DNA of 64,000 nucleotides from Roseburia sp. (GTDB lineage: Bacteria > Bacillota > Clostridia > Lachnospirales > Lachnospiraceae). The notes under the pieces were generated by a model. The model saw only the letters and a program-made list of their open reading frames with translations. It was not told the origin of the DNA and ran no database searches. This document shows positions 30,201-31,820 of this stretch, in pieces. Within the stretch, counting starts at the first letter, position 1; each line of letters opens with the position of its first letter. Position numbers and translations under genes: made by a program. Location: the NCBI GenBank assembly GCA_023664685.1, contig JAMPFC010000004.1:1233-65232 (forward strand), written 5' to 3'.

Positions 30201-31820
30201 CTGCTCTACCTGCCTCTTCGCTCCAAACAATAATATGTAATATGGCAATGTCATTGATTTTTTGGAGAAACTATTTTTTGAAATCTCCTTTTCTCTCATT
30301 CGTAACATTTCCTCAAACATTTCACAAATGTTATGTACCTGTTCCCTTGTAAACGCCAAATAGCGAAACTGTTTTTCTTCATCCCATATATGGGGAAGCC
30401 AACGGAGAGATTCCCACACCTCCCTCTCTTCTTCATCAAATATACCGACCAAGCGTACTTCTTGAAAACAATGTGTACTTGTCAAAGCAACAATCATATT
30501 TTTTACCAAATGGATAACACGACGCCGATCCCCAATAATTCCAACCGTTGTTTGCTCCAAAAGTGAGATACGAGAAGGAATCTCATCGACTATTCTCGTC
30601 TCCTCGATTAGTCTCTCTGACATCTCTGTTATTTCGTCTTCCTCAATTTGAACATTTCCATTTATATTTCTGGAATGTACTTTCACACACAAATTTTCAT
30701 AACCCATCCCCAATCGTACATGCAAAAAATCCCGGTCAGAACTCATACGTTCCCACAAATTACGGTTTAAATTATTTACTATACTGATGCATTCCTGTGG
30801 GGCCGGATTTTCTCTTGTTAATATCATTCTCTGCTGCTCTGCTACTGCATCAATCCGCGCTTTTTGTTCACTAATATAAGTAAAATACCGCTCATGTCGA
30901 AGAAGCTCATACTCTTCCAATTTCTTTTTTCGCCGTTTATTTCCGCTTTTTTGCGACGCAATACCAGAAACCGGCATAGCAAGTGTAGCTGCCCTCGCCG
31001 CCAACAGTGCCGGAGATGCTGCGCCCATTGCCAAACTACTTGCCATCATAGCGCCCGAACCGATCAAAGAGGCTAACATCCCACGGCTTTTTTCAAATTT
31101 TTGTCCCTTTGAAGGCGGGCTTGCCAAGACAATATCTTCGTTTGGTAACTGTTCCTGCGTCCGCGGAGAACGTCGATATTTAATGATGCTCCCTTTGTTT
31201 TCCATCCCTGTCTCTCTTTGAAATGCTTGTTCCTGCTCTATTTTGTGCAATATGAATGCACCATCAAAATCTTCAAAAAGAAGTCTAGCATCTTTTAAAT
31301 GAATACGTAAATTCATAAGAGAAATCGTATCGCCCGATTTTAATTTACATTTATTGATTCTCTTTCCATTTACAAATACACCATTTGTACTCTGCAAATC
31401 CTCTACATATATTACTCCGGCCTCACTGCGGATTACACAATGTTTTCCGGATACATACTGTTTCGCCACGCATACCGTATTACTCTCTGCCCTTCCGATT
31501 TTGACAATGCACTGATACGGTAACTTTAATGTATGTGAGGAAATCCCAACCGCCTCTGTAAACAAGATCGCCGTTCTCGTATTCTTGTCCAAAACCAGTA
31601 TTTGATTCATGAAATCCACACTTTTCTCACGATTTATATATGGCTCTTTTACAAAAAGATTTATCCCTGTCTTTTTCCAACTGACCGATATCTGCCCATG
31701 TTTCATGTCAGAAACATATACCGTATCCTTTTTATGGCTTCCAAATGTCACTTGTGAAAATTTTTCTATTTTATGGTGAAAAATATTATCATTATGTAAT
31801 AAAGTTACTAAAACCGCCAT
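27270..31820 (-). CDS. essC: EssC/YukB-type T7SS FtsK/SpoIIIE ATPase (two FHA domains, two TM segments, three P-loop domains)
   Basis: I start it at MAVLVTLL (ATG 31820) with GAGGAG 7 nt upstream; the ORF track starts at 31838. FHA2: KIGRAESN...SGKH...STNGVFVNG. TM region: MLASLIGSGAMMASSLAMGAASPALLAARAATLAMPV. D1: GTTGSGKSE with IIVADEF. D2: GAPLTGKTT with VIAIDNF. D3 is degenerate (VTGENEKEKSE). Confidence 0.9.
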   Translation of the reverse strand: MAVLVTLLHNDNIFHHKIEKFSQVTFGSHKKDTVYVSDMKHGQISVSWKKTGINLFVKEPYINREKSVDFMNQILVLDKNTRTAILFTEAVGISSHTLKLPYQCIVKIGRAESNTVCVAKQYVSGKHCVIRSEAGVIYVEDLQSTNGVFVNGKRINKCKLKSGDTISLMNLRIHLKDARLLFEDFDGAFILHKIEQEQAFQRETGMENKGSIIKYRRSPRTQEQLPNEDIVLASPPSKGQKFEKSRGMLASLIGSGAMMASSLAMGAASPALLAARAATLAMPVSGIASQKSGNKRRKKKLEEYELLRHERYFTYISEQKARIDAVAEQQRMILTRENPAPQECISIVNNLNRNLWERMSSDRDFLHVRLGMGYENLCVKVHSRNINGNVQIEEDEITEMSERLIEETRIVDEIPSRISLLEQTTVGIIGDRRRVIHLVKNMIVALTSTHCFQEVRLVGIFDEEEREVWESLRWLPHIWDEEKQFRYLAFTREQVHNICEMFEEMLRMREKEISKNSFSKKSMTLPYYILLFGAKRQVEQEEIMNHLFTNTPEMGVTSLFLFDDLYSLPHDCRFIIDMSQEPCAYPRDEVNHKFFFTPDEEIQNEDFDRFARTMSAIELDGFAVREQIPNGITFLQGYGVDVVGDLNITERWQQARPEENLSAPIGMLGGGKVFSLDIHEKAHGPHGLVAGTTGSGKSELLQTWILSMAVNYHPHEVVFVIIDYKGGGMANLLEPLPHVVGKITNVGSNINRSLISLKSEVKRRLILFDAAGVNHIDKYQKLYRDGQLTEPLPHLIIVADEFAELKKEEPDFMNGLVEVARLGRSLGVHLVLATQKPSGVVDDQIWSNSRFKLCLKVADAGDSREMLKKPDAAYITQAGRAYVQIGMDEYYDLFQSYWSGAPYMGSSKAEENIGNQVRMVAVNGERIKTVLEEKTRFKSEQDELTAIILHIAEVAKQQGIRPLDGPWLPELPEELELRRDIIQNDGFDGSRWNTSLEWMQVPVGIYDAPDIQKQGIQFINLAEEGHYGIYGAPLTGKTTFLKTIVSSLVRMYSPEDVNIYILDCGGWSMNIFSAFPHVGGVALDTEEEKFIKFEKLIMEEFEKRKEMFLRSSVGSLSAYRKTVSKNLPAIVIAIDNFASLFDLYPDMEQLFVTVAREGATYGIYMIYTSNSTSGIRFKVLQNIRGAIAFELTDRGDYATVVGRLDGMTLPKITGRAFFKGNPPVEFQAALYAGGVEDEERAEQIRNLADEMNAVWDGERPKPIPVMPEEITVPMMENYYTVGNQIPLGIGYSDIQPAVLDLSSQYCMVVTGENEKEKSEMLCRIAEMISHGESRNKIYVIDSEKAQLKDIQDLANIYAVDNEWDSVNRMMNEIVEMLNDRKRAQNQERAENPSFDEADFIAPYEQICIFIDNIRGFVDAVSEEDHNSMERICRLAEGLGVLVFAGGMSDDLAKYNEIESLTQAIISCQKGIVLSGAPNGYNFFHNSLKYNEKAVEAGQGNGYLFDGGNCEKIKWMN

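What the first reader, a model, noticed from the sequence alone, without database searches (positions are those of the whole stretch)
31299..31526. The second FHA domain of EssC keeps the canonical phosphothreonine-binding residues while kinases and a phosphatase are co-encoded
**FHA2.** EssC residues ~105-180 (ORF-track numbering) read KIGRAESNTVCVAKQYVSGKHCVIRSEAGVIYVEDLQSTNGVFVNG. This contains the three signature elements used by phosphopeptide-binding FHA domains: G-R, S-x-x-H and (S/T)-x-N-G.

**FHA1.** The first FHA-like region (VTFGSHKKDTVYV) has lost the Arg.

**Context.** As far as I know, no phospho-dependent partner has been established for EssC/YukB FHA domains. Here two active-looking Ser/Thr kinases and a PP2C lie in the same operon.

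**Hypothesis.** This parallels the PpkA/PppA/Fha1 threonine-phosphorylation switch of the Pseudomonas aeruginosa H1-T6SS. It suggests an analogous post-translational on/off switch for a type VII system.
Basis: partly seen in the sequence, partly recalled or inferred. Interest (0 to 1): 0.75.

Follow-up and report, generated by a model that had tools for sequence, protein, structure and literature searches.

The report
Phosphothreonine-ready FHA domain on EssC
The motor protein of a type VII secretion system in a gut-type Clostridia genome carries a sensor domain that looks able to bind phosphorylated threonine, next to two active kinases and a phosphatase; the feature is real, but it and the on/off-switch idea were already published for this group of systems in 2024 and remain untested by experiment.

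Summary
Window 27270-31838 (-) encodes an EssC-family T7SS ATPase (TIGR03928, 1195 bits) with tandem N-terminal FHA domains. FHA2 (31317-31505) matches Pfam FHA at E=2.6e-18. It keeps G115-R116, S130-x-x-H133 and S150-T151-N152-G153. These align without gaps to the pThr-contacting R459/S473/T494/N495 of M. tuberculosis FhaA. FHA1 has no Arg, and none of 45 relatives has one there.

K1, K2 and the PP2C keep all catalytic motifs. They lie co-directionally downstream of essC, and this synteny recurs in relatives with 39-53% identical EssC.

Garrett, Higginson and Palmer (Microlife 2024, PMC11217815) tabulated the same three motifs (TsdC/TseC/TsjC 90-100% versus 0-21% in T7SSb EssC). They highlighted the second FHA domain, noted the co-encoded kinases and PPM phosphatases, and drew the T6SS analogy. 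I found no experimental test.

The most likely mechanism is that autophosphorylated K1/K2 are docked by FHA2, in place of the phospho-independent EssB pseudokinase-FHA2 contact of T7SSb, and that the PP2C reverses this.

The locus is a new member of a known kind. It may belong to an uncatalogued variant that lacks TsxH/I/J/K. Interest is moderate to low.

The parts
27270..31838 (-). essC-like gene for the T7SS FtsK/SpoIIIE-family ATPase. The ORF runs from TTG at 31838; the likely start is ATG at 31820 (MAVLV...). Layout: tandem FHA, an Ala/Gly-rich membrane segment, then ATPase domains.
   Evidence: TIGR03928 T7_EssCb_Firm scores 1195 bits (cut-off 778.4) over residues 214-1513. Pfam FtsK_SpoIIIE scores 1.3e-58.
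31524..31820 (-). FHA1, a degenerate first FHA-like beta-sandwich (about residues 7-105 of the TTG ORF). Ser replaces the pocket Arg; a G-x-x-K-K-D motif is conserved.
   Evidence: The AF2 model is all-beta over residues 1-99. Foldseek aligns about 200 columns to the tandem FHA of YukB 9qks_H, 5fwh and 1wv3. No sequence-level FHA hit. Arg is absent in 0/45 relatives.
31317..31505 (-). FHA2, a canonical FHA domain (Pfam match, residues 112-174 of the TTG ORF). This is the core of the finding.
   Evidence: PF00498 scores E=2.6e-18. Gap-free alignment to FhaA 3po8 and Rv1747 FHA-2. Foldseek gives 26-33% identity to EmbR, FhaA, GarA, Ki67 and DgcB.
31491..31496 (-). Codons for G115-R116 (motif 1). 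The Arg is the main phosphate ligand in canonical FHA domains.
   Evidence: Read directly. Aligns with R459 of FhaA. G 45/45 and R 43/45 in the clade.
31440..31451 (-). Codons for S130-G-K-H133 (motif 2, S-x-x-H).
   Evidence: Read directly. Aligns with S473 and H476 of FhaA. S 41/45 and H 41/45.
31380..31391 (-). Codons for S150-T151-N152-G153 (motif 3, (S/T)-x-N-G).
   Evidence: Read directly. Aligns with S-T494-N495-G of FhaA. N 38/45 and G 42/45.
26672..26932 (-). YukD/EsaB-like ubiquitin-fold protein (TsxB).
   Evidence: PF08817 YukD scores 2.3e-9. Conserved next to essC in L001, L002, L007-L010.
26032..26331 (-). WXG100/EsxA-like protein (TsxA). Further WXG100-like genes lie at 26413-26667, 25661-25948 and 24359-24655.
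   Evidence: PF06013 scores 1.2e-14. TIGR03930 scores 56.1 bits.
22180..23816 (-). Candidate effector module: a 436-aa protein with an N-terminal WXG100/LXG-like domain (22506-23816) plus a DUF4176 protein (22180-22509).
   Evidence: PF06013 scores 6.4e-7 at residues 4-87. PF13780 DUF4176 scores 4.8e-24.
19855..22152 (-). K1, a single-pass membrane Hanks-type Ser/Thr kinase (765 aa). Layout: cytoplasmic kinase domain, long Thr-containing linker, TM at about 418-436, then an extracellular domain. This is the same topology as EssB.
   Evidence: Pkinase scores 1.9e-41. GSGSFG, AIK, HRDIKIDN, DFG and APE are present, with one TM helix.
19132..19830 (-). Predicted lipoprotein (232 aa, signal peptide ending LLAGC) between K1 and the PP2C. 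It has weak local similarity to the K1 ectodomain (shared FPDGWEV motif).
   Evidence: Translation. blastp against the K1 ectodomain gives E=6e-4 over 15 aa only. No Pfam or NCBIfam hit.
18291..19118 (-). PP2C/PPM Ser/Thr phosphatase (TsxF-like).
   Evidence: PF00481 scores 6.8e-13. NF033484 Stp1/IreP scores 1.1e-38. PDB matches: PstP 3.2e-15 and PppA (6jkv) 7.7e-13. The metal-binding motifs are kept.
16775..18289 (-). K2, a second single-pass membrane Ser/Thr kinase (504 aa). Its kinase domain is 55% identical to that of K1.
   Evidence: Pkinase scores 4.7e-41. Motifs and TM helix. K1-K2 blastp.

Best explanation
The gene encodes the EssC-type motor ATPase of a type VII secretion system. Its second N-terminal FHA domain has kept a working phosphothreonine-binding pocket.

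Proposed mechanism:
- The co-encoded membrane kinases K1 and K2 have HRD (RD-type) catalytic loops and Thr-rich activation loops. They sense something through their extracellular domains and autophosphorylate on threonine, in the activation loop and/or the long juxtamembrane linker.
- FHA2 of EssC docks onto that phosphothreonine. This recruits the kinase to EssC, or recruits EssC into an assembled core unit together with the YukD-like protein.
- The docking plays the role that the phospho-independent EssB/YukC pseudokinase-FHA2 contact plays in T7SSb.
- The PP2C removes the phosphate and switches assembly or secretion off.

Shown here: domain identity, conservation of every pocket residue, intact catalytic motifs of both kinases and the phosphatase, and conserved synteny.

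Inferred: that FHA2 binds pThr at all, that K1/K2 make the ligand, that the ligand sits on the kinases themselves, and that the outcome is activation of secretion.
For: - **FHA2 identity.** It is a bona fide FHA domain (Pfam E=2.6e-18). It aligns without gaps to FhaA (3po8), so that R116, S130, H133, T151 and N152 match R459, S473, H476, T494 and N495. The role of those FhaA residues in pThr-peptide contact is from my own knowledge of Pennell et al. 2010, and the numbering agrees with the chain offsets.
- **Structure.** The AF2 model has pLDDT 82.5. Foldseek places the tandem on YukB, 5fwh and 1wv3 at only 11-14% identity. It places FHA2 alone on pThr-binding FHA domains at 26-33% identity, including the GarA-PknB and FhaA, EmbR, Ki67 and DgcB phosphopeptide complexes.
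- **Selective conservation.** The pocket residues are kept in 84-100% of 45 cluster representatives that are only about 28-69% identical overall, while the position after the conserved Gly of FHA1 is never Arg. T7SSb EssC shows 0/0/21% for the same three motifs (Table S1 of PMC11217815).
- **Enzymes.** K1 and K2 keep all catalytic motifs. The PP2C keeps its metal-binding motifs and resembles PstP, Stp1 and the T6SS phosphatase PppA.
- **Synteny.** The order essC, yukD, WXG/LXG module, PP2C, kinase(s) recurs in L002/L009, L003, L005, L007, L008 and L010, whose EssC is 39-53% identical.
- **Precedent.** In T7SSb, FHA2 is the domain that binds the EssB/YukC pseudokinase (cryo-EM, PMC12637312; pull-downs, PMC9436818). 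K1 and K2 have EssB's topology.
- **Independent proposal.** The same hypothesis was reached for TsdC, TseC and TsjC (PMC11217815).
Against: - There is no experimental evidence for pThr binding by any EssC-type FHA domain, or for phosphorylation of any T7SS component in these subtypes.
- In T7SSb the FHA2-pseudokinase contact uses the kinase alphaC helix and inter-lobe loops and needs no phosphate. Retained pocket residues could therefore be ancestral baggage.
- I found no Thr-containing linker motif conserved across the kinases of related loci. The RT(Y/V)AAF motif shared by K1 and K2 is specific to this genome.
- The number and ectodomains of the kinases vary between relatives, from one to three. 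That pattern would also suit sensors that act on other targets.
- A few clade members have N-to-H/Y or R-to-C/K substitutions.
- 'Operon' is inferred from gene packing only.
Confidence: 0.6

Rival explanations
1. FHA2 is a phospho-independent scaffold, as in T7SSb. It binds K1/K2, or another partner, through surfaces other than the pThr pocket. The kinases and PP2C regulate something else, such as transcription of the locus, cell-envelope stress responses, or effector and immunity proteins.
For: - T7SSb FHA2 binds the YukC/EssB pseudokinase without phosphate.
- Kinase control of a T7SSb is known at the transcriptional level: IreK in E. faecalis, cited in PMC11217815.
- The Esr pathway of Actinomycetales acts through a separate FHA protein (PMC13622651).
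- The number and ectodomains of the kinases vary between related loci.
- A hybrid histidine kinase and a receiver protein also sit directly upstream of essC.
Against: - If the pocket were unused, R116, S130, H133 and N152 should drift. They did drift in T7SSb EssC (0/0/21%), in FHA1 of the same protein (0/45 Arg), and in the more distant EssC clade L011-L048, where the Arg is mostly K, S, E or A.
- Instead they are kept in 84-100% of a clade that has diverged to about 30% identity.
- Presence of the kinase correlates with pocket conservation across subtypes (Table S1).
Confidence: 0.2
2. FHA2 binds a phosphothreonine that K1/K2 place on a protein other than the kinases. Candidates are another EssC protomer, or one of the small conserved cytoplasmic proteins of the cluster (p117, p219, p103, p167, the WXG-like helpers or the LXG effector). 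Phosphorylation would then drive EssC oligomerisation or substrate loading. This would resemble the ABC transporter Rv1747, whose N-terminal FHA domains bind its own PknF-phosphorylated linker, or Agrobacterium Fha binding phospho-TssL.
For: - The best solved-structure sequence match of FHA2 is Rv1747 FHA-2 (3.9e-8). Rv1747 is also a membrane ATPase with tandem N-terminal FHA domains and a cognate kinase (my own knowledge).
- p219, p103, WXG98 and p167 are conserved in order with essC from Clostridia to Olsenella.
- The Agrobacterium T6SS precedent is cited in PMC9436818 and PMC11217815.
Against: - The one Thr in the conserved EssC linker motif (YRRSPRTQEQLP) is not conserved in the clade, where it is M, K, I or L in relatives.
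- No candidate phosphosite could be singled out in the small proteins.
- FHA-containing substrates of Hanks kinases are usually recruited through the kinase's own phosphorylated activation loop (PknB-GarA, 6i2p among the Foldseek hits; mechanism from my own knowledge of Villarino et al. 2005).
Confidence: 0.18
3. The motif match is a chance resemblance or an annotation artefact, so this is not a real FHA domain or not a real gene.
For: None found.
Against: - Pfam E=2.6e-18 over the full profile.
- A 1522-codon ORF with TIGR03928 above its cut-off.
- Homologues with 39-69% identity.
- A confident predicted fold.
Confidence: 0.01

Closest known systems
T7SSd, T7SSe and T7SSj of Garrett, Higginson and Palmer 2024 (Microlife 5:uqae013, PMC11217815): a TsxC ATPase with phosphothreonine-competent FHA, a TsxD membrane Ser/Thr kinase and a TsxF PPM phosphatase
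   Same: - An EssC-like ATPase with tandem N-terminal FHA domains, whose second domain keeps GR/SxxH/NG.
- A single-pass membrane kinase with an intact active site.
- A cytoplasmic PPM phosphatase, a YukD-like protein, WXG100 proteins and an LXG-type candidate substrate.
- The same proposed regulation by Thr phosphorylation.
   Different: - No TsxJ (DUF6382-FHA) anywhere in the 64 kb.
- No TsxI-like protein. The only large Ig-domain protein has a signal peptide but no C-terminal TM helix and lies about 9.5 kb beyond K2, the last gene of the cluster.
- No room for small single-TM TsxH/K genes inside the cluster.
- Two paralogous kinases plus a lipoprotein.
- The N-terminal half of EssC is only 23-28% identical to the published TsdC, TseC, TsjC and TsfC representatives. 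That is about the distance between those subtypes themselves (the published sequences are OCR text, so this is approximate).
- The two RefSeq members of the window's clade are absent from the paper's accession lists.
T7SSb core unit: EssC/YukB FHA2, the EssB/YukC pseudokinase and EsaB/YukD (PMC12637312, PMC9436818, PMC4925161)
   Same: - The same ATPase family (TIGR03928 above cut-off).
- The same tandem-FHA architecture (Foldseek to 9qks_H, 5fwh and 1wv3).
- A YukD-like protein next to essC.
- A partner with the same topology: cytoplasmic kinase fold, one TM helix, extracellular domain.
- FHA2 is the kinase-fold-binding domain in T7SSb.
   Different: - T7SSb FHA domains lack the pThr residues, and EssB is a pseudokinase with no phosphatase partner.
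- Here the pocket is intact, the kinases look active and a PP2C is present.
- None of the Pfam hits returned for the cluster proteins was an EssB/YukC, EsaA or EssA family.
- FHA-region identity to T7SSb structures is only 11-14%.
T6SS threonine phosphorylation pathway: PpkA/PppA/Fha1 in P. aeruginosa H1-T6SS, and PpkA/TssL/Fha in A. tumefaciens
   Same: - A membrane Hanks kinase, a PP2C phosphatase and an FHA domain encoded within a secretion-system cluster.
- The PP2C matches PppA (6jkv) at 7.7e-13.
- The FHA region hits the TagH/Fha model TIGR03354 at 2.1e-8, below its cut-off.
   Different: - The secretion machinery is unrelated.
- In the T6SS the FHA protein is a separate scaffold protein. 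Here the FHA domain is fused to the motor ATPase itself.
- The resemblance is one of logic, not of homology of the systems.
Rv1747 of M. tuberculosis: an ABC transporter with two N-terminal FHA domains, regulated by the kinase PknF
   Same: - A membrane ATPase with tandem N-terminal FHA domains and a cognate Hanks kinase.
- Rv1747 FHA-2 is the best solved-structure sequence match of FHA2 (3.9e-8).
   Different: - A different ATPase superfamily and function.
- In Rv1747 both FHA domains bind pThr sites in its own linker (my own knowledge).
- Here only FHA2 is canonical, and no conserved linker Thr was found.

Membership tests
FHA domain, phosphothreonine-binding class (Pfam PF00498) | Profile match above the curated cut-off | tested here: met
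   66.6 bits against a 20.7 cut-off, E=2.6e-18, profile positions 1-66 of 67, residues 112-174.
FHA domain, phosphothreonine-binding class (Pfam PF00498) | The Gly-Arg, Ser-x-x-His and Asn(-Gly) residues that form the pThr-peptide pocket (G69/R70, S85/H88 and N107 of Rad53 FHA1; established knowledge) | tested here: met
   G115-R116, S130-x-x-H133 and T151-N152-G153 align gap-free with R459, S473, H476, T494 and N495 of FhaA 3po8, and with Rv1747 FHA-2. Conserved 84-100% in 45 relatives.
FHA domain, phosphothreonine-binding class (Pfam PF00498) | Beta-sandwich FHA fold | tested here: met
   Prediction only. The AF2 model has pLDDT 82.5, and about 90 over FHA2. Foldseek to EmbR, FhaA, GarA, Ki67 and DgcB gives probability 1.00, with rmsd down to 1.5 A over 79 columns.
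FHA domain, phosphothreonine-binding class (Pfam PF00498) | Measured binding to a pThr peptide or protein | not testable with these tools
   Needs ITC or fluorescence polarisation with recombinant FHA2.
EssC (T7SS FtsK/SpoIIIE ATPase, NCBIfam TIGR03928) | Equivalog model above its cut-off, with multiple FtsK_SpoIIIE ATPase domains | tested here: met
   1195 bits against 778.4. PF01580 scores 1.3e-58 in two stretches.
T7SSb (Bacillota type VIIb system) | EssB/YukC pseudokinase, EsaA/YueB and EssA/YueC encoded with essC | tested here: not met
   Pfam and NCBIfam scans of every ORF of the cluster gave no YukC/EssB, EsaA or EssA family. The kinase-fold proteins present are active-looking Pkinase members. 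Genes elsewhere in the genome cannot be excluded.
T7SSb (Bacillota type VIIb system) | EssC FHA domains that lack the pThr-binding motifs | tested here: not met
   The motifs are present here. T7SSb shows 0/0/21%.
T7SSd/e/j class (Garrett et al. 2024) | TsxC with conserved GR/SxxH/NG in the second FHA domain, a TsxD membrane kinase with a conserved active site, and (for e and j) a TsxF PPM phosphatase and TsxB | tested here: met
.
T7SSe / T7SSj specifically | TsxJ (DUF6382 plus C-terminal FHA), TsxK, TsxI (large, signal peptide, Ig-like domains, C-terminal TM helix) and, for T7SSe, TsxH | tested here: not met
   - A clade-derived FHA HMM finds only EssC FHA2 in all six frames of the window.
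- The Big_2 protein at 4055-7285 has a signal peptide but no C-terminal TM helix.
- There are no unassigned gaps above about 85 bp within the cluster.
- These genes could lie outside the 64 kb window.
T7SSd/e/j: phylogenetic placement of TsxC | Clusters with the TsdC, TseC or TsjC clade | tested here: inconclusive
   - N-terminal half: 28% identity to TsjC and TseC, 25% to TsfC and 23% to TsdC. Distances between the subtypes themselves are 24-32%. The published sequences are OCR text of a supplementary figure.
- The RefSeq clade members WP_072354716 and WP_059054408 are not in the paper's lists.
T6SS threonine-phosphorylation pathway (PpkA/PppA/Fha1) | T6SS core genes, and a stand-alone Fha/TagH scaffold protein phosphorylated by or recruited through PpkA | tested here: not met
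   No T6SS genes are present. The FHA domain is fused to EssC. TIGR03354 TagH scores 34.4 bits against a cut-off of 120. This is an analogy only.

The most novel reading that the evidence does not exclude
The window may represent an uncatalogued, minimal T7SS subtype. It would consist of EssC with a pThr-competent FHA2, YukD, WXG100 proteins, one to three active single-pass membrane Ser/Thr kinases and a PP2C, with no EssA, EssB or EsaA and no TsxH, I, J or K. It is found almost only in metagenome-assembled gut and rumen Clostridia and, with the same gene order, in Coriobacteriia (Olsenella, Tractidigestivibacter). In this reading the active kinase is a structural core subunit, the catalytically live counterpart of the EssB pseudokinase. 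Phosphothreonine docking by FHA2 would then be the assembly switch. This would show the state from which the phospho-independent EssB-FHA2 contact of T7SSb was derived.
Probability: 0.3. Interest if true: 0.65.

Novelty: new member of a known kind. Interest (0 to 1): 0.35.

Why it matters
What EssC's FHA domains are for, and how Gram-positive type VII secretion is switched on after translation, have been open questions since the first EssC FHA structures (2005/2007 and 2016). In T7SSb the domains have lost the phosphopeptide pocket and bind a dead kinase.

Systems like this one keep the pocket, live kinases and a phosphatase. They are therefore the natural place to test whether the FHA-kinase contact was originally, and still is, phosphorylation-gated. 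That would give a second example, after the T6SS, of a threonine-phosphorylation checkpoint on a bacterial secretion or antagonism machine in gut anaerobes.

The idea itself is already in print (Garrett et al. 2024). The value of this locus is as one more compact example, possibly of an uncatalogued variant, rather than as a discovery.

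Tried and rejected
- **Source of the window.** An exact-sequence look-up of EssC and K1 found nothing on record. Relatives are Oscillospirales and Lachnospiraceae-type MAGs.
- **Operon evidence.** The promoter and terminator scan across 14.6-34.5 kb gave counts equal to shuffled sequence, so it is uninformative.
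- **Conserved phospho-acceptor in the EssC linker.** The Thr of YRRSPRTQEQLP is not conserved in relatives. Rejected.
- **Conserved Thr motif in the kinase linkers across loci.** None was found. K1 and K2 share (D/E)(D/E)RT(Y/V)AAF, but the kinases of related loci do not. Kept only as a locus-specific lead.
- **Second FHA protein (TsxJ) in the window.** None was found.
- **Big_2 protein at 4055-7285 as TsxI.** It has no C-terminal TM helix. Rejected.
- **Subtype assignment.** Comparison with the published TsxC sequences recovered from OCR text of a supplementary figure was inconclusive. All lie at the distance seen between subtypes.
- **Lipoprotein as a paralogue of the K1 ectodomain.** Only a 15-residue motif is shared, at E=6e-4. 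Too weak to claim.
- **Experimental follow-up in the literature.** A search on T7SSd and T7SSe found none in the held library. One search call failed on a syntax error.

Full report
**What is at the coordinates**

Window 31299-31526 lies inside a 1522-codon minus-strand ORF, 27270-31838. The ORF starts at a TTG; the likely true start is the ATG at 31820, giving MAVLV....

The protein is an EssC-type T7SS ATPase. NCBIfam TIGR03928 scores 1195 bits against a cut-off of 778 over residues 214-1513. Pfam finds FtsK_SpoIIIE at 1.3e-58 and an FHA domain at residues 112-174 with E=2.6e-18.

I confirmed the key codons by eye on the DNA:
- R116 = 31491-31493
- S130 = 31449-31451
- H133 = 31440-31442
- S150-T151-N152-G153 = 31380-31391

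**Is FHA2 canonical?**

A sequence search of all PDB chains with the N-terminal 207 residues finds phosphothreonine-binding FHA domains first: Rv1747 FHA-2 at 3.9e-8, then ArnA, FhaA/Rv0020c, GarA and EmbR. It does not find the S. aureus or Geobacillus EssC FHA structures at E<=1.

The printed alignment to FhaA (3po8) has no gaps. It puts G-R on G-R459, S-G-K-H on S473-R-R-H476, and S-T-N-G on S-T494-N495-G. From my own knowledge of the FHA literature, these are the residues that hold the phosphate and the peptide backbone.

An AlphaFold2 model built on a 10-sequence alignment has mean pLDDT 82.5, and about 90 across FHA2. Foldseek against the PDB gives two kinds of match:
- The whole tandem aligns to B. 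subtilis YukB in the T7SSb core unit (9qks_H), Geobacillus EssC-N (5fwh) and S. aureus EssC-N (1wv3), at only 11-14% identity.
- FHA2 alone aligns to EmbR, FhaA, GarA (including the PknB-GarA complex 6i2p), Rv1747, Ki67 and DgcB at 26-33% identity, with rmsd down to 1.5 A.

So the architecture is EssC-like, but the second domain is, in sequence, an ordinary pThr-type FHA.

**Conservation**

A HMMER scan of 1.84 billion cluster representatives gave about 45 clusters that share the whole tandem N-terminus. In their alignment the pocket residues are well kept, although overall identity to the window is mostly 28-45%:

| Residue (TTG-ORF numbering) | Conserved |
|---|---|
| Gly115 | 45/45 |
| Arg116 | 43/45 |
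| Ser130 | 41/45 |
| His133 | 41/45 |
| Asn152 | 38/45 |
| Gly153 | 42/45 |

The ten closest genomic loci (L001-L010) all keep GR and SxxH. All but L004 and L010 also keep the Asn.

FHA1 never has Arg after its conserved Gly (0/45). It carries a conserved G-x-x-K-K-D instead and has no SxxH or NG equivalent.

A more distant EssC clade (L011-L048, 29-37% identical) mostly replaces the Arg by K, S, E or A while keeping SxxH and NG. This shows that the Arg does drift when it is not needed.

**Context**

Downstream of essC, all on the minus strand with gaps of at most about 85 bp, lie the following genes:
- a 117-aa protein
- a YukD-like protein (PF08817, 2.3e-9)
- four WXG100-like proteins
- conserved 219-, 103- and 167-aa proteins
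- a 436-aa protein with an N-terminal WXG/LXG-like domain
- a DUF4176 protein
- kinase K1 (765 aa)
- a lipoprotein (232 aa)
- a PP2C (275 aa)
- kinase K2 (504 aa)

K1 and K2 each have GxGxFG, the AxK lysine, HRD(I/V)KxDN, DFG, APE, a Thr-containing activation loop and one TM helix. Their kinase domains are 55% identical. The PP2C keeps the RxxNED, DGMGG, GDS, CSDGL and DNTT motifs. It matches PstP (3.2e-15), Stp1 and the P. aeruginosa T6SS phosphatase PppA (7.7e-13). "Active-looking" is thus justified.

"Same operon" is inferred from gene packing only. A consensus promoter and terminator scan was no better than shuffled sequence.

The arrangement is not a one-off. PP2C plus one to three K1/K2-like kinases follow the same essC-yukD-WXG/LXG module in L002/L009, L003, L005 and L010 (Clostridia MAGs). 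They also do so in L007 and L008 (Olsenella sp. kh2p3 and Tractidigestivibacter scatoligenes, which are Coriobacteriia). The EssC of these loci is 39-53% identical to the window's.

**What is already known**

- Zoltner et al. 2016 (PMC4925161), citing Tanaka et al. 2007, established that T7SSb EssC FHA domains lack the pThr-binding residues.
- Bobrovskyy et al. 2022 (PMC9436818) showed that S. aureus EssC without FHA2 no longer associates with EssB.
- The 2025 cryo-EM structure of the B. subtilis core unit (PMC12637312) shows the YukC pseudokinase contacting YukB FHA2 and the FHA-stalk linker, with YukD stabilising the FHA domains.

Most important is Garrett, Higginson and Palmer 2024 (PMC11217815), which defined T7SSc to T7SSj.

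[quoted passage not shown] | TsdC | 100 | 98 | 90 | yes |
| TseC | 98 | 99 | 90 | yes |
| TsjC | 100 | 100 | 100 | yes |

Their Fig. [quoted passage not shown] Their text proposes that assembly or activity is controlled by threonine phosphorylation, and their discussion draws the T6SS parallel.

The observation and the hypothesis are therefore both in print at the family level. I found no experimental follow-up on these subtypes. A 2026 preprint shows that a kinase, a phosphatase and an FHA-protein pathway (Esr) control Esx in oral Actinomycetales, but through a separate FHA protein (PMC13622651).

**Where this locus sits**

It fits the general class of a pThr-competent TsxC, a TsxD kinase, a TsxF phosphatase, TsxB and TsxA. 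It does not meet the full component list of T7SSe or T7SSj:
- No DUF6382-FHA protein (TsxJ) is present. A clade-derived FHA HMM finds only EssC FHA2 in the six-frame translation of all 64 kb.
- No TsxI-like protein is present. The only large Ig-domain protein, at 4055-7285, has a signal peptide but no C-terminal TM helix.
- The cluster has no room for small single-TM genes.

The N-terminal half of EssC is 28% identical to the TsjC and TseC representatives, 25% to TsfC and 23% to TsdC. Identities between those subtypes are 24-32%. These published sequences were recovered from OCR text, so the figures are approximate.

Clade members are almost all metagenomic. The two RefSeq members, WP_072354716 and WP_059054408, are not in the paper's accession lists.

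I therefore file the finding as a new member of a known kind. There is a real but unproven possibility that the clade is an uncatalogued minimal variant. Missing components could simply be encoded outside the window.

**Most likely mechanism (inferred)**

K1 and K2 are RD kinases with Thr-rich activation loops and long disordered linkers. Such kinases typically autophosphorylate and recruit FHA proteins through those pThr sites; the PknB-GarA complex was among the Foldseek hits. K1 and K2 share EssB's topology, and in T7SSb FHA2 is the domain that binds the EssB kinase fold.

The simplest model is as follows. FHA2 of EssC docks onto autophosphorylated K1/K2. This makes formation of an EssC-kinase-YukD core unit depend on a signal sensed by the kinase ectodomains. 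The PP2C resets the switch.

My confidence estimates:
- FHA2 is pThr-competent: about 0.8
- K1, K2 and the PP2C control it: about 0.6
- The ligand is on the kinases themselves: about 0.35

Two rivals remain:
- A phospho-independent scaffold, with the kinases acting elsewhere (0.2). The selective retention of the pocket argues against this.
- A pThr on another T7SS component or on EssC itself, driving oligomerisation as in Rv1747 (0.18). The non-conserved linker Thr weakens this.

**Verdict**

A T7SS specialist would not be surprised. The locus is useful mainly as another compact, candidate-rich example for the decisive biochemistry.

Noticed in passing
window 11804-13552 (-); L003:849-3215, L004:8000-9997, L005:7589-9958: A third kinase-like membrane protein (582 aa) has an N-terminal Cys4 zinc-ribbon-like motif, two PASTA domains and an unusual catalytic loop, HRDISPDN, with Ser in place of the catalytic-loop Lys. 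Its closest homologues in related genomes (HRDVAPDN) sit immediately upstream of essC. It may therefore be a further T7SS-associated kinase or pseudokinase rather than a housekeeping PrkC.
   Followed up: partly
L007 and L008 (Olsenella sp. kh2p3, Tractidigestivibacter scatoligenes), about 10001-24557: These Coriobacteriia (Actinomycetota) carry the window-type cluster in the same gene order. It includes a YukD-like gene, a PP2C and three tandem membrane kinases. This differs from the published T7SSd description, which has no ubiquitin-like protein and no phosphatase. Their EssC accessions are not in the 2024 survey lists. The pattern suggests a cross-phylum, possibly horizontally transferred subtype.
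   Followed up: partly
L011-L048, EssC FHA2 region: A more distant EssC clade (about 1560-1700 aa; Lachnospiraceae, Blautia and Ruminococcus MAGs) keeps SxxH and NG but mostly replaces the pocket Arg by K, S, E or A. Some of these loci also have stand-alone FHA proteins of about 175 aa and kinase-like proteins of about 630 aa with H(T/S/C)D loops nearby.
   Followed up: partly
window 31740-31757 (-), FHA1 residues 28-33 of the TTG ORF: FHA1 has no Arg, but it carries a strongly conserved G-x-x-K-K-D motif at the position of the canonical GR...D loop (second Lys 42/45, Asp 42/45). The function is unknown. It could be a different, phospho-independent ligand surface, for example for YukD.
   Followed up: no
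window 19132-19830 (-) and K1 ectodomain 19855-20843 (-): A lipoprotein between K1 and the PP2C shares an FPDGWEV-containing stretch with the extracellular domain of K1. blastp gives E=6e-4 over only 15 residues, and there are no family hits. It could be a co-sensor, but the evidence is weak.
   Followed up: partly
K1 residues about 326-336 (window about 21145-21177, -) and K2 residues about 320-330 (about 17300-17332, -): The juxtamembrane linkers of both kinases share the motif (D/E)(D/E)-R-T-(Y/V)-A-A-F. It is absent from the kinases of related loci. It is a locus-specific candidate phospho-acceptor or FHA docking site.
   Followed up: partly
window 32066-34819 (-): A hybrid histidine kinase (HisKA, HATPase, REC, weak Hpt; five predicted TM helices) and a single-domain receiver protein lie directly upstream of essC on the same strand. 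HK/RR pairs also sit just upstream of essC in L012, L014 and L015. This may be a second, transcriptional layer of control.
   Followed up: no
window 2649-3863 (-), 13698-14972 (+), 34851-36059 (-): Three paralogous AAA_14/DUF4143 ATPase genes are scattered around and within the region, on either side of the T7SS cluster. Their significance is unknown.
   Followed up: no
window 14987-16651 (-): A secreted protein with CHAP, GBS_Bsp-like and fn3 domains and a signal peptide lies 123 bp downstream of K2 on the same strand. It is a possible cell-wall hydrolase associated with the system.
   Followed up: no
window 23834-25657 (-): Proteins of 219, 103, 98 (WXG100) and 167 aa precede the LXG-like protein. 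They are conserved in the same order from Clostridia to Olsenella. They are probably LXG targeting or chaperone factors, but they have no family assignment.
   Followed up: no
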